Shown piece by piece: positions 32,858-58,592 of a DNA stretch of 64,000 bases; the first letter of the stretch is position 1; the number at the start of each line of letters is the position of its first letter. Origin of the DNA: Balanoglossus misakiensis (taxonomy: Eukaryota; Animalia; Hemichordata); NCBI GenBank assembly GCA_040954595.2, contig CM082589.2, positions 5,391,186-5,455,185 on the forward strand. Direction: 5' to 3'. The position numbers and the translations under genes were made by a program. Under the pieces are notes generated by a model. It made no database searches. It saw only the letters and a program-made list of their open reading frames with translations, and was not told where the DNA came from.

Positions 32858-35800
32858 CTATAGTCTCATTGGCTCGTAAATGATGTTATCAACAAAGCCA
32901 GTTTCAATATCATCCTCCGACTCGGACGGCGGCATGGCTGTGTCAGTCTGGACTACTGGTGGTGAAGCTTGGACATTGCCGCCTGTGAAGGAAGTGACCG
33001 TTTCGTCTTGAAGAAACTGAAAGTTTCGTACAGTGGAGTCAGAGGAGGTAGAATTCAACTCATGGTCCTGTTGACTTGCTTCGTCCGTGACCTCAACTGT
33101 GTTGGGGTTATCGAAAGCCATGTCAACTGCTTCGTTACCATGATTACCGGCAGGTATGTTCCTCCTCTTTTCATCTAATAGTTGCCTTTGCCGCCTGGAT
33201 GCAAAAAATAACATAAACTATATTACCAAATTCTGTACTCTTGACACGTCTGTTTTTATGGTCGGTCCCGCAAAGCTAACCACTACAAAAATGCAACTGA
33301 CCAAAATTATGAAGTAAATTATACAGCAACTTTCGCTCGGTATAGTAGAAATAAAGTGATGGAATGGAAATTAAATGTAATAATATCGCACTGGGGAACA
33401 AAATTGATGAAGATGAAAAATGTACCTGCAATTTCTGTGAATAAGAACACTGAGGAAGATCACCATTGCCATAGAAATTCCAATGGCCACTGCGAAACCA
33501 ATATACAAACTTAAATATACACCTGAAATAAATAAATATAAAGAGATAGATGGTCAAATCAATCAGTCAATCAACCAACCAATCTTTCAATCGACGGGGT
33601 AAATTTTTATGCGCTTTTACAAGAAACATCTTGAGAGCATTTAATACAAGAATATATTAACAGAGGCAACAATGGAAACAATAATTTGTGCTTACCCGGC
33701 AGCGATTTGTCTGTCACTTTCATTTGAACTGGAGCTGAGAACGATGAAACAGGAAATATACATATATATATTTTATCAGAACAGCCTTACTTGAATATTA
33801 CACTAATTACATTATGAGTATGACAAATTTAACCGATCTGTCAGTGGGGAAATGATAAGTTAGCCATGAAATGGAACACGTGTTGTTACGACTGCATAAT
33901 GACCCGGAAGACGATTTGATATATATATAGTTGGTGATAGAAAGATAACCATGTCAATGCTGAGCAGTTTATAATGCAAGGTAACTCTAATATATGCAAC
34001 CCAAAGCGTTCTCATTGAAGCCAGGAGTACGGTGATCGGCCAAGGAGCAAGCAATAAACTTACCAACGCAGCGCGGGCTTCTTCCTGCCCATTTACCAGA
34101 AGCTGTGCAGGTTTTATTTGCATCAGACTGGACCGTACTGTTGTAACCATCAAAACATCGATAGTGCACGATGCTACCTACAGTTATTTTCTCTCCTGTG
34201 TAGTTGGCGTATTCGACCGTGGGAGGGACTCCACACGATATAGCTGTGGAATATATACATATTCACATATGGATAACTCGAACAATAATCACAAAACTGA
34301 ATAAATTACCATACCATTATTACCGTCGCTGAAAGCATTAGAAGGATAACCAGGCAAAGTTACTGCGAACTTGTTTGAAAAACATAGTCGACCTACACAA
34401 GCTGAAGTATTCCACCACAAACAGTGAAGACGAGGAACTGGAATTCGACGTGAAATGCACGGTTACACTCGAAGTGTCCACAAATCGGATTATATCATTG
34501 CTTGCGCTAGTAATGAACCTCTCTTCTCCGGAAATCCCGTCTGTCAAGGTAAGCTTGTCGCCTCCACGTATGTTTGCCACAAGGAATCGGAAAGCGAGTC
34601 CGTCAGTCGCGTTCATGTCTATCGTCCATCGGCAGTTTGCGTGTTCTGTTGAGCTACCAGGAAAGCCGGGCGAGTAGATGTAACCATGGCGACTGGATAC
34701 GTCGAACCCACAAGCACCTACGTTACCTGCGATGAAATCAGTTTCTGAATTACTGCGAGATCTCACGAACTTTGTGGTCTATTCCTAGGCGATATTTTTC
34801 TCGGAATGAAAAAGGTCATGTATTGTCATATAGAATCACCATGTCACCACGTCTTTGACTCACGTGATCTCGCTGTTATATTGTGGCAGCCGCTACTACT
34901 ATCTCAATAATTGTGAACGCCAAATTACTTACTTTCGTAAACATCAAATTGGTAGTGTCCTCCACAGCCCTGACCAGGGTCTCCGGAACACTGCATTGTC
35001 TTATACCCAATCAGAGGCGACGTGTATATCCACTCCCCCGGTAAGACTTCACCGTATCGGGAATAATCAGTACTTTCATTTGCACAATAACATTCATTAG
35101 AACTTTCAATAACAGCAAGAGGCGTCTCCTCTTCACGACAGACTTGTAGGCACTTCTGGATAGTAATGTCAGTTATGTCGGCCTTTTCGCTTTGAGCGAA
35201 TAGTCTTTCACTCAGACTTTCTCTAAATCGACCAAGATAGCCTGGAACTAATACAAAAATGATTTCTCTAAGTCATATTGGTGCGTATATAAGCATTCTC
35301 AGCTGATCAGGTAAACGACCACTGAGCAACGACCCCTTCCATTATATTGGTGCTATACAGTTTCTTTATAGCGAATTTACAGATGTGTTTTAGTATAGGT
35401 AAAATCAATTTGTGTTATTGGCAAAATTGGTAGATTGCGACGCATTTGTGTGCATCTTTTAGCTCAAGTAACCATCGTTTGATAAAAGCAATTTCTTGTG
35501 AGATTTAAAACTGACATTTGTAGGGGAAATATGTCTTGTAACTCACAATAACACGTGACCCCCGCGTGAACAGTCTCTCCGCAGGGACAGTTACCCGTCG
35601 TGTCCCAGTTGATGAAACAGTCTTCAAGGGAAGTAGATGTACGACTGCACGCTATGCCGCACACTGGTGAATCGAGGCGACTGAGGCCAAACGTGTTGTT
35701 GTGCCACATGGCAGACACGAACCCTGCGAGAGAACATCGTGGCAAATGTTACGAATAATGAGAAAACGGTCGACTAGACATTCGAAAGACACGGGGCCGG

Positions 35801-36869
35801 ATGAATGGATATCTTTACCAATGAATGTTAATTTATCCATGCTTGTATGCATTTTTCCTACCTACCTCTCTCATTTATGAAAAACCCTACCGCAATCACA
35901 TACCTAGCTGCCCACATATTGCCCGTGCTATGGTTAGATCCCAGCGATGGCTGTCTGCGCATAGATATCTCCAGTCTGTGCCTTCACCCCGCAGTTCAAC
36001 TCGGCCTTCGAAGGGCGTACGACCACCTGTTAGTCGTACTTCCACTATGCAAATAAGAACGTGAAAGAAAAAAGTGAGACGTCACATTTGTGAAAGGTCT
36101 ATTTTTACACATACTTATGCATGGAGCATACCAAATGACCTACGGGTCGTGATGCTTGACCATGTTGACTACACCCCGCACGTAGTCATTTCCCGTTTTA
36201 ATATTGAACAGTGGTTGATCCGAACATCGTTGCTGCAACGAATATAAAAGTAAAAGCTTCTTACTTGATACAAGACAAGGTTTTTGCAAAACACAGCAAT
36301 AATAACTTCAGGTCGTCAAACGGAACGTGTCGTGTGGAGATCACCATACATTTTGTGACAACGCATTCGTTGTTCAGTGCTCGGGTGTTAAAACACCTCG
36401 CCCTGTTTCACGACAAAACAATTCTTTGCAATAGATTCACTGTGCGTTACAGCACAGTGATTTGTTCTGGGGTCACCCATTGACGTGGTGGCGATCCGCG
36501 AGTATCGATTCTCTACAGGGTTGCGCAGTTGTGATGCGTCTCAGTCAAGGCTCAAATACGTTTAAGAAAATACACACAAGTTATATTCAAGGTGACATTC
36601 CACCAAACAGCTACGACTCATGCTGTCAATTTATACCTTACAAGCTTATTTAGGAGTGCGTCAAAAAAGACAAACGATTAATTATTTTTCAATTTCCGGG
36701 TACCAAGTGAAAGTGATGTGGAATCATTGCCTATCGCTGTCTATACCACAAACGAGAGAAGAGACATATTAACTCGCCACTTACCATATTCGGTCAAGAT
36801 GACGGGTAGAAGACAAACAACTAGTAATATGGACAATGTCAATGAAATCTGATGGCCCGATTGCTGCAT
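32858..36869 (-). CDS. Type I membrane receptor: signal peptide-SRCR-WSC-CUB-Sushi-TM-short tail (receptor 1)
   Basis: Signal exon [47 protein letters not shown]...AICGQLG...AGVTC; WSC CLQVC...ECYC...[16 protein letters not shown]...GYIYSPGFP...CRWTI; Sushi CGVPP...YRCFDGY...[39 protein letters not shown]; tail ends [13 protein letters not shown]. Confidence 0.85.
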
Positions 36870-57600: not shown

Positions 57601-58592
57601 CTTCCAACATGACGTACGCAGATAAAATATATTTCCTGTGGAATTATTTTGAAAAGTGAAAAACTTACAGTAACATGTAATTCCTACATGAGGCCCGTCA
57701 TCACACTGACACTGATCTCCGTTTTCATTCCAATCTATGGCACAGTTCTGTAAAGAATCTGACAGTGGATCACATATGACGTCACAAACAGAGGAATTCG
57801 GATCACTTCTGCCAAATTCACTGTTCGGCCATTCCCACATCACAGTAGAGTAATCTATGTTATTAAACGGAAAACACCATGATGATGAAGATGACAGGCT
57901 TGGTTAATGCAAATGTCATATTGTAAAAACAAAATGGGCATATAAAGTATGGTTTATGAATGCAATGTTACTTGTGTTGGCATAAATGTACTTTTGCAAG
58001 CTTTATACGAACTACTTCGCTGTAATGAACGTTACCTAATTGTTTACATATGGCCCTTGCTACTGTTAAATTCCAGCCTGCATCAGTTCCACAAAAATAC
58101 CTCCACGAATCCCCTACGTTACTTCTTACTTCAACTCTTCCTTCGAATGGCGTCCTTCCACCCACCAAACGAACCTCGACTGAAAAGAAGATTGCGTTGA
58201 TTAATGTAGACCTTTCTGACGTGCTCATTTGACAAGACACATTCATAATATCCATGCATCGTTGATACAGTGAAGAAAATGCATTGTATATGGTTTGATA
58301 TGACATTCTCCTGTGTAACTTAATCCTGGCAACATATATAGAGAGATTGAAGACATGCATTACCCTCAACAATTCTGACGAGGCCTGTACAAATGGCCCA
58401 CAAATTATAGAATATTTACTTCCTGGTAGCTTTTTAAAGGGATTATTGAGCAACAAGTATACATGTCACTACTCTTTCTGTTCAACGTTTAACATTACCT
58501 TGTTCGCTGATTTCTACCAGTGTAAGACAAACCAATATCCCAAAGATAATTTTACCACGAGAAAAAACACGAACGACGACAGACAGCGTCAT
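54688..58592 (-). CDS. Type I membrane receptor: SP-SRCR-WSC-CUB-short stalk-TM-Tyr-motif tail (receptor 3)
   Basis: [52 protein letters not shown]...CYCG...CTGD...GCGGDW; CGGDYTGPSGYIYSPNFPGNY; TM YIGVGAGIAILLIMILLIIVVVVLL; tail ends FVDNVLYES...FVDNIVYESANEL*. Confidence 0.88.

What the first reader, a model, noticed from the sequence alone, without database searches (positions are those of the whole stretch)
32858..58592. Three-gene family of Kremen-like receptors with SRCR in place of the kringle (SRCR-WSC-CUB-TM)
Seen: three paralogs share exon structure and the order signal peptide-SRCR-WSC-CUB, then Sushi (receptor 1) or a Ser/Thr stalk of different length (2, 3), a TM and a non-catalytic tail. 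Known: WSC-CUB-TM is the Kremen arrangement (Kringle-WSC-CUB); SRCR and WSC domains are linked to microbial or glycan binding. I do not recognise a named receptor with this architecture. Inference: a lineage-specific, diversifying pattern-recognition or signalling receptor family built by exon shuffling.
Basis: partly seen in the sequence, partly recalled or inferred. Interest (0 to 1): 0.75.

Follow-up and report, generated by a model that had tools for sequence, protein, structure and literature searches.

The report
Acorn-worm paired Kremen-like receptor family
Three predicted, apparently intact genes encode cell-surface receptors that resemble the Wnt regulator Kremen but carry a scavenger-receptor domain in place of its kringle; their relatives in other acorn worms join near-identical outer parts to two different tyrosine-signal tails, so the family likely works as paired on/off recognition receptors, probably in immunity.

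Summary
Observation confirmed. Three open, cleanly spliceable gene models (566, 936, 767 aa) read signal-SRCR-WSC-CUB-(Sushi or Ser/Thr stalk)-TM-tail. NCBI models of 26 relatives, all from acorn worms (13 on one Ptychodera contig, 12 Saccoglossus entries, 1 Glandiceps), join the same domains at the same junctions. The WSC-CUB unit is Kremen-like (E 3e-26 to human KRM1), but these fail the Kremen definition: no kringle, one WSC disulfide lost, no LRP6-binding loop, long tails. New here: the family uses two tail types, a short ITAM-pattern tail and a long tail with repeated YAxV and DNxxYE motifs (window genes 2, 3). Both types occur in Ptychodera and in Saccoglossus, yet ectodomains group by species (about 79% identity within, 50% between, whatever the tail; monophyly of ITAM-tailed ectodomains rejected). 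That is the pattern of paired activating/inhibitory receptors under concerted evolution. Gene 1 is an older Sushi-bearing branch with a Ptychodera ortholog. No expression, ligand or signalling data were obtained; immune function and the sign of each tail are inferred, and no ITAM-tailed member lies in the window.

The parts
36785..36869 (-). Gene 1 exon 1, signal peptide
   Evidence: hydrophobic 4-30; GT donor
35904..36044 (-). Gene 1 exon 2, SRCR N-half
35547..35723 (-). Gene 1 exon 3, SRCR C-half (6 of the 8 Cys)
34933..35247 (-). Gene 1 exon 4, WSC domain
34397..34726 (-). Gene 1 exon 5, CUB domain
34064..34243 (-). Gene 1 exon 6, Sushi domain
33696..33734 (-). Gene 1 exon 7, 13-codon linker (least certain exon)
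   Evidence: in frame with AG/GT, weak similarity to ortholog
33426..33522 (-). Gene 1 exon 8, transmembrane helix
32858..33194 (-). Gene 1 exon 9, short tail with a single Tyr, in a terminal FVDNxxYE motif
49656..49728 (+). Gene 2 exon 1, signal peptide
49977..50120 (+). Gene 2 exon 2, SRCR N-half
50241..50426 (+). Gene 2 exon 3, SRCR C-half
50846..51181 (+). Gene 2 exon 4, WSC domain
51434..51766 (+). Gene 2 exon 5, CUB domain
51936..52526 (+). Gene 2 exon 6, 197-aa Ser/Thr stalk
52707..52803 (+). Gene 2 exon 7, transmembrane helix
53005..54055 (+). Gene 2 exon 8, long tail: 3 YAxV, 2 ITIM-pattern sites, 2 NxxYES, 1 YEEL
58499..58592 (-). Gene 3 exon 1, signal peptide (weakly hydrophobic)
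58036..58179 (-). Gene 3 exon 2, SRCR N-half
57669..57854 (-). Gene 3 exon 3, SRCR C-half
57046..57384 (-). Gene 3 exon 4, WSC domain
56498..56827 (-). Gene 3 exon 5, CUB domain, followed by a GC donor
56176..56373 (-). Gene 3 exon 6, 66-aa Ser/Thr stalk
55786..55879 (-). Gene 3 exon 7, transmembrane helix
54688..55606 (-). Gene 3 exon 8, long tail: 2 YAxV, 2 FVDNxxYE, 1 ITIM-pattern site

Best explanation
The window holds three predicted intact genes for single-pass receptors with an SRCR-WSC-CUB head, members of a family expanded in acorn worms that likely works as paired recognition receptors: a shared head would bind a probably foreign or self surface ligand, and one of two alternative tyrosine-motif tails would then switch the cell on or hold it off. 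Steps: (1) shown from sequence: domain order, TM, tail motifs, purifying selection; (2) shown on public gene models of relatives: two tail types on near-identical heads, in two genera; (3) predicted: SRCR and WSC pack as one unit, presenting the WSC face that binds Dickkopf in Kremen; (4) inferred: clustering lets Src-family kinases phosphorylate the tail tyrosines; the YxxL-x9-YxxL tail recruits Syk/Shark (activating), the long YAxV/ITIM/DNxxYE tail recruits Csk or SHP phosphatases and PTB-type adaptors (damping, uptake); (5) inferred: duplication plus gene conversion or tail swapping keeps the heads alike within a species. Genes 2 and 3 would be long-tail (putatively damping) members; gene 1 an older, single-motif Sushi-bearing member.
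For: Gene models and Pfam. 26 relatives, all named as enteropneust, 13 on one 48.2-Mb Ptychodera contig. Tail motifs in 19 tails against 2000 shuffles: YAxV 20 vs 0.9; DNxxYE-type 19 vs 0.04; YxxL-x9-YxxL 6 vs 0.01; in 46 unrelated TM tails 2, 0 and 0 tails. x9 fits the ITAM consensus Yxx[I/L]x(6-9)Yxx[L/I] (PMC9546547, passages). WSC+CUB identity: same species/different tail 79.5% (23 pairs), same species/same tail 77.8% (20), different species/same tail 50.2% (22), different/different 50.1% (26); P0001 (long tail) vs P0007 (ITAM tail) 96/79/90% in SRCR/WSC/CUB. AU test rejects one clade of the 7 ITAM-type ectodomains among 19 rows, p 4e-112. Tails are related across species within type: long-long z>=4 in 23 of 33 pairs, short-short 3 of 12, short-long 1 of 47. 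Between window genes 2 and 3 silent sites are more alike in CUB (57 of 77 codons identical) than SRCR (26 of 54), p 0.003. In 5 Ptychodera paralogs WSC has 42 of 112 variable columns against 45 of 220 in SRCR+CUB, p 0.001, including the positions matching KRM1 N140, E162, D201. SRCR-WSC model pLDDT 83.6, pTM 0.78. This matches the description of paired receptors in PMC13358205 (passages).
Against: No expression, ligand or binding data. No ITAM-tailed member in the window; the pairing rests on automated models of other species, which in tandem clusters can be chimeric, and 8 of 27 tree rows have no tail. Motif patterns were written after seeing the sequences and paralogs are not independent. 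The ITIM pattern is barely enriched (13 vs mean 4.8, max 15) and also matches the short tails. A similar paired [A/D]VYxxV motif sits on the partner of an activating Botryllus receptor (PMC12582321, passages), so 'long tail = inhibitory' is weak. Cross-species homology of short tails is shown only for one Saccoglossus protein; one of the 7 has a 16-residue spacer. In Saccoglossus WSC is less variable than CUB (12 of 90 vs 38 of 107), the reverse of Ptychodera. Several KRM1 Dkk-contact positions in WSC are retained (D125 acidic in 20 of 22, S163 25 of 28, D201 19 of 27).
Confidence: 0.5

Rival explanations
1. Scavenger/uptake or adhesion receptors: the head binds glycans or debris and the tail tyrosines are mainly sorting signals (NxxY, YxxL) for endocytosis or phagocytosis, with no opposed signalling; tail types are just modules picked up from a common pool.
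For: SRCR fold matches scavenger receptors; the DNxxYE motif, the only Tyr motif in gene 1, resembles NPxY-type sorting signals (resemblance recalled, no call); ITAMs also drive phagocytosis in Drosophila (PMC9546547); mucin-like stalks.
Against: Does not by itself explain why both tail types persist on homogenised heads in two genera, nor repeated YAxV motifs akin to Csk-binding EPIYA-like sites (PMC3561454, passages).
Confidence: 0.22
2. Diverged Kremen: Dickkopf/LRP6 co-receptors that tune Wnt signalling, the SRCR standing in for the kringle.
For: KRM1 is the best single-stretch PDB match for WSC-CUB (E 3.5e-26) and the only significant match for the WSC exons; nearest Atlas structure is the Kremen cluster (TM 0.62 over 243 residues); part of the WSC Dkk face is kept; Saccoglossus has dkk1/2/4 (PMC5786327, passages).
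Against: Kringle half of the Dkk site (D88, D90, W94, Y105, W106, Y108) is absent, and an intact kringle-WSC-CUB triplet is required for Wnt antagonism; KRM tails are 60-75 aa and dispensable (PMC5014086). Y165 kept in 0 of 28 rows, C122/C186 in none; the RIN loop for LRP6 is not conserved. A dozen homogenised paralogs with variable tails is unlike a developmental co-receptor.
Confidence: 0.12
3. Non-immune cell-recognition receptors (gamete, neural, larval settlement or regeneration cues) using the same tyrosine modules.
For: SRCR, CUB and Sushi domains occur in many non-immune surface proteins (PDB hits); nothing here places expression in immune cells.
Against: Cluster expansion with homogenised heads and alternative ITAM-type tails is typical of immune or allorecognition loci.
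Confidence: 0.11
4. The architecture or the tail pairing is an artefact of gene prediction.
For: No transcript seen; several public models are partial or lack a TM; gene-model errors in kremen genes are documented (PMC3927609, passages).
Against: Same phases and junctions in 3 window genes and in independent NCBI models of 3 species; low dN/dS; each tail is the next in-frame exon within 130-240 bp in the window.
Confidence: 0.05

Closest known systems
Kremen 1/2 (kringle-WSC-CUB-TM)
   Same: WSC-CUB tandem with a similar linker (about E 3e-25 over 227 residues); six WSC cysteines; stalk and single TM.
   Different: SRCR instead of kringle; C122-C186 pair lost; about 10-residue insert in WSC; no RIN loop; WSC in one phase-1 exon (Xenopus kremen2 has an internal phase-0 intron); 116-355 aa Tyr-motif tails; multigene cluster. 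The CUB exon alone is no closer to KRM1 than to MASP, neuropilin or PCPE CUBs.
[quoted passage not shown]
   Same: Linked genes, near-identical ectodomains, different intracellular parts, signs of conversion (PMC13358205).
   Different: Not Ig or C-type lectin folds; the ITAM pattern is in the receptor's own tail rather than an adaptor; opposed signalling untested.
Invertebrate allorecognition receptor families (Hydractinia Alr, Botryllus Fester/FcoR)
   Same: Clustered multigene single-pass receptors with ITAM, ITIM or other tyrosine motifs; FcoR core-2 motif resembles YAxV.
   Different: Those are IgSF proteins tied to a mapped histocompatibility locus; no such phenotype or polymorphism data here.
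DMBT1 / SRCR-CUB scavenger proteins
   Same: SRCR plus CUB in one ectodomain (Atlas feature hits 0.80 and 0.78, leads only).
   Different: Single SRCR with an unusual 8-Cys set, a WSC between SRCR and CUB, no ZP domain, signalling-type tail.

Membership tests
Kremen | N-terminal kringle domain | tested here: not met
   SRCR occupies the place; no kringle hit in window ORFs or relatives
Kremen | WSC followed directly by CUB, stalk, single TM | tested here: met
Kremen | Four WSC disulfides | tested here: not met
   C122 and C186 positions are Arg and Tyr; Cys in 0 of 22 and 0 of 27 rows; mapping read from the phmmer alignment
Kremen | Dkk-contact residues (kringle D88, D90, W94, Y105, W106, Y108; WSC D125, N140, E162, S163, Y165, D201) | tested here: not met
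   Kringle set absent; WSC set partly kept: D125 acidic 20/22, E162 11/28, S163 25/28, Y165 0/28, D201 19/27
Kremen | CUB R307-I308-N309 loop binding LRP6 | tested here: not met
Kremen | Orthology by phylogeny with vertebrate and invertebrate Kremen | not tested
   No Kremen sequence came back under an id; whether acorn worms keep a true Kremen is open
Kremen | Dkk binding and Wnt modulation | not testable with these tools
   needs assays
Paired activating/inhibitory receptors | Linked genes with highly similar ectodomains | tested here: met
   13 Ptychodera models on one contig, up to 96% identity per domain; window genes 2 and 3 adjacent but only 53-72% alike
Paired activating/inhibitory receptors | Activating member with ITAM or adaptor-binding TM | tested here: met
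   YxxL-x9-YxxL in 6 of 7 short-tail relatives; none in the window's three genes
Paired activating/inhibitory receptors | Inhibitory member with ITIMs | tested here: inconclusive
   ITIM pattern in genes 2 (2) and 3 (1) but in only 4 of 10 long tails and barely above shuffles; YAxV in 10 of 10 long tails
Paired activating/inhibitory receptors | Concerted evolution of ectodomains | tested here: met
   independent tail capture not excluded
Paired activating/inhibitory receptors | Opposed signalling and co-expression in immune cells | not testable with these tools
   no RNA run listed; published tables not usable
SRCR group A / group B | Six Cys in two exons (A) or eight Cys in one exon (B); definitions recalled | tested here: not met
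   Two exons as in A, but 8 Cys (14 of 15 full domains counted, one has 9); lacks the two Cys seen in CD163 domains near the N-terminus and after the helix; carries a different extra pair

The most novel reading that the evidence does not exclude
Acorn worms built a paired activating/inhibitory immunoreceptor system on the Kremen scaffold: an SRCR-WSC-CUB head whose Dickkopf-type face has been redirected to variable foreign or allo ligands, kept alike by concerted evolution while two ancient tails, ITAM and Csk/ITIM-type, give opposite outputs. It would be a third, non-Ig, non-lectin fold used for paired receptors and the first such family described in Ambulacraria.
Probability: 0.35. Interest if true: 0.8.

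Novelty: new variant of a known kind. Interest (0 to 1): 0.6.

Why it matters
Hemichordate immune receptors are little described, and how ITAM/ITIM-style paired recognition arose among deuterostomes is open. This family offers named, testable candidates in two laboratory species (Saccoglossus, Ptychodera). It also shows the Kremen WSC-CUB unit, known as a Wnt regulator and virus receptor, reused in a fast-turnover receptor cluster, which bears on what Kremen's ancestor did. Databases currently label these proteins 'kremen protein 1-like', 'DMBT1-like' or 'uncharacterized', which would mislead Wnt-toolkit surveys.

Tried and rejected
No whole genome is held for the window, so family size in this species is unknown. 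RNA search: no RNA holder listed; no reads were laid. First fold of a full-length relative was poor (pLDDT 49; its Foldseek hits are used only as a lead). The wide VIA fold search did not complete. The profile for one search was meant to be WSC-only but came out at 644 positions, so multi-CUB/SRCR proteins filled the 150 rows (cut-off 207 bits; KRM1 scores about 112): distant SRCR-WSC-CUB proteins outside acorn worms could be missed. One search covered only 1340-3825 aa proteins and returned cubilins and CSMDs. A PDB look-up with a Sushi-rich relative was dominated by complement proteins. Expression in the literature: PMC10210618 (poly I:C in Saccoglossus) has no mention in text, and its one held supplement has none of the ids; its gene tables were not visible and may bear on the immune claim. 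PMC13554239 (Schizocardium single cells): marker file is cut, 30 of 54 'WSC' places seen, none identifiable as this family; bioRxiv version passages only. Earlier scan findings: none. Positive selection on window genes rejected. Identity with Glandiceps or P. flava rejected as the source species (best 39% and 64%). No complex prediction was sent.
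Full report
1. What is in the window. Exon ends read from the rulers give three open gene models: gene 1 (-, 36869-32858, 566 aa), gene 2 (+, 49656-54055, 936 aa), gene 3 (-, 58592-54688, 767 aa). All 22 introns end in AG, 21 begin GT and one GC; ectodomain introns are all phase 1. The other two frames hold 27-64 stops. Pfam finds SRCR, WSC and CUB in each gene and Sushi in gene 1. The heads are 39-54% identical; dN/dS is about 0.2-0.27 where silent sites are not saturated. 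There is no fourth copy. Five MFS transporter genes are interleaved or adjacent.

2. Relatives. Searches with the WSC exon, a Saccoglossus head and a profile returned 26 proteins with this type of WSC out of 238 held: 13 Ptychodera flava models, all on a contig of 48,197,526 bases, 12 Saccoglossus kowalevskii entries (two annotation versions, so fewer loci; P0016 and P0017 are one locus) and 1 Glandiceps talaboti. Sources name them 'kremen protein 1-like', 'DMBT1-like' or 'uncharacterized'. Their models join SRCR, WSC and CUB at the same junctions as mine (12 of 12 head junctions, 19 of 22 overall). The window is therefore inferred to be an acorn worm close to Ptychodera but not that species (best 64%). 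None was found outside acorn worms, but the searches did not even return vertebrate Kremen, so absence is weak evidence.

3. Family tree. On WSC+CUB (27 rows; P0016 dropped as a duplicate locus, P0083 as too short) gene 1 pairs with Ptychodera P0078 (99/96) with Glandiceps P0021 as sister; genes 2 and 3 fall in the Ptychodera expansion (99/98); Saccoglossus forms its own group (95/89) (bootstrap not fully settled; 80/63 in the 19-row tree). So there is an old Sushi-bearing branch and separate expansions in each lineage.

4. Relation to Kremen. KRM1 is the best single-stretch PDB match (E 3.5e-26), the only significant match of the WSC exons and the nearest Atlas structure (TM 0.62). Against the structure paper (PMC5014086, parts 1-2 of 5 read): no kringle, hence half of the Dkk site is gone; the C122-C186 pair is absent in every row; Y165 is never kept; D125, S163 and D201 are mostly kept; the LRP6-binding loop is not. 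The CUB alone is not specifically Kremen-like and the WSC exon structure differs from Xenopus kremen2 (PMC3927609, passages). These are Kremen-like, not Kremen; common descent of the WSC-CUB unit is likely but untested by a tree. The SRCR is split over two exons and has eight cysteines in a set unlike CD163's. A Ptychodera SRCR-WSC model is confident (pLDDT 83.6, pTM 0.78) and matches SRCR domains (TM about 0.8) and the KRM1 WSC (rmsd 3.2 over 116 columns).

5. The tails. Of 19 relatives and window genes with a usable tail, 10 have a long tail with YAxV sites (10 of 10) and DNxxYE-type sites, 7 a short tail with YxxL-x9-YxxL (6 of 7; one has a 16-residue spacer) usually followed by Y[EQ]E[ILV], and 2 (gene 1 and its ortholog) a short tail with at most one motif. 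The motifs exceed shuffles by far and are rare in 46 unrelated tails, with the caveat that patterns were chosen after inspection and paralogs are not independent. The x9 spacing fits the ITAM consensus used for Hydractinia Alr (PMC9546547, passages). YAxV resembles EPIYA-like Csk-binding sites (PMC3561454, passages) but also the Botryllus core-2 motif found with an activating receptor (PMC12582321, passages). The ITIM pattern is only weakly enriched (13 vs 4.8).

6. Heads and tails have different histories. Both main tail types occur in Ptychodera and in Saccoglossus. Heads are 78-80% alike within a species and 50% between species regardless of tail; one clade of ITAM-type heads is rejected (p-AU 4e-112, 19 rows with known tail; classes were set before the tree). 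Long tails are related across species (z>=4 in 23 of 33 pairs); short tails demonstrably only for Saccoglossus P0019 against the three Ptychodera ones (3 of 12); short against long 1 of 47. In the window, genes 2 and 3 share more silent sites in CUB than in SRCR (p 0.003), as partial conversion would give; codon constraint is an alternative. In Ptychodera WSC is the most variable domain (p 0.001), in Saccoglossus CUB is (p 0.0005).

7. Mechanism. The pattern fits paired receptors as described for Siglecs and PILRs (PMC13358205, passages): one head, two outputs. I put this at 0.5; uptake/adhesion 0.22; Wnt co-receptor 0.12; other cell recognition 0.11; artefact 0.05. Kinase and adaptor steps rest on general knowledge of ITAM, ITIM and Csk signalling, not on tests here. 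Genes 2 and 3 are long-tail members; the window has no ITAM-type member.

8. Novelty. Full-text searches found no paper describing this architecture or family: WSC domain+SRCR+CUB domain, 2 papers; kremen/hemichordate/SRCR/WSC, 2; kremen with invertebrate deuterostomes, 18, the two read mention only vertebrate Kremen; hemichordate immune ITAM/ITIM; paired receptors+invertebrate+gene conversion, 1; acorn worm immune kremen; kremen evolution, 0. PMC6078440 passages gave nothing on invertebrate Kremen. The library lacks most subscription papers, and supplements not seen (PMC10210618 tables, the cut part of PMC13554239 file 5) may bear on expression. Verdict: a real, undescribed domain architecture and probable paired-receptor family; new variant of a known kind; interest 0.6.

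Noticed in passing
window 36869/37541 and 48972/49656: Genes 1 and 2 each sit head-to-head with an MFS (monocarboxylate-transporter-like) gene, start codons 672 and 684 bases apart: the receptor-transporter pair may have duplicated as an inverted unit and may share two-way promoters.
   Followed up: partly
window 30466-48972: Five paralogous MFS_1 transporter genes, 37-76% identical to the one at 41647 in the large exon.
   Followed up: partly
window 56497: GC-AG intron in gene 3 at the position where gene 2 has a GT donor.
   Followed up: partly
window 35547-35723, 50241-50426, 57669-57854: SRCR domain with a non-standard extra cysteine pair, conserved in all full-length relatives; pairing not determined.
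   Followed up: partly
proteins P0004, P0009, P0010, P0015, P0042, P0062, P0083, P0171: Public models without a TM; may be secreted decoys or partial predictions. P0004 joins the signal exon straight to WSC, skipping SRCR.
   Followed up: no
window 9479-28501: Ordinary neighbours: BTB-BACK (kelch-like) gene, a radical-SAM gene resembling ELP3 (name recalled), an EMP70/TM9SF gene, ribosomal protein S20.
   Followed up: no
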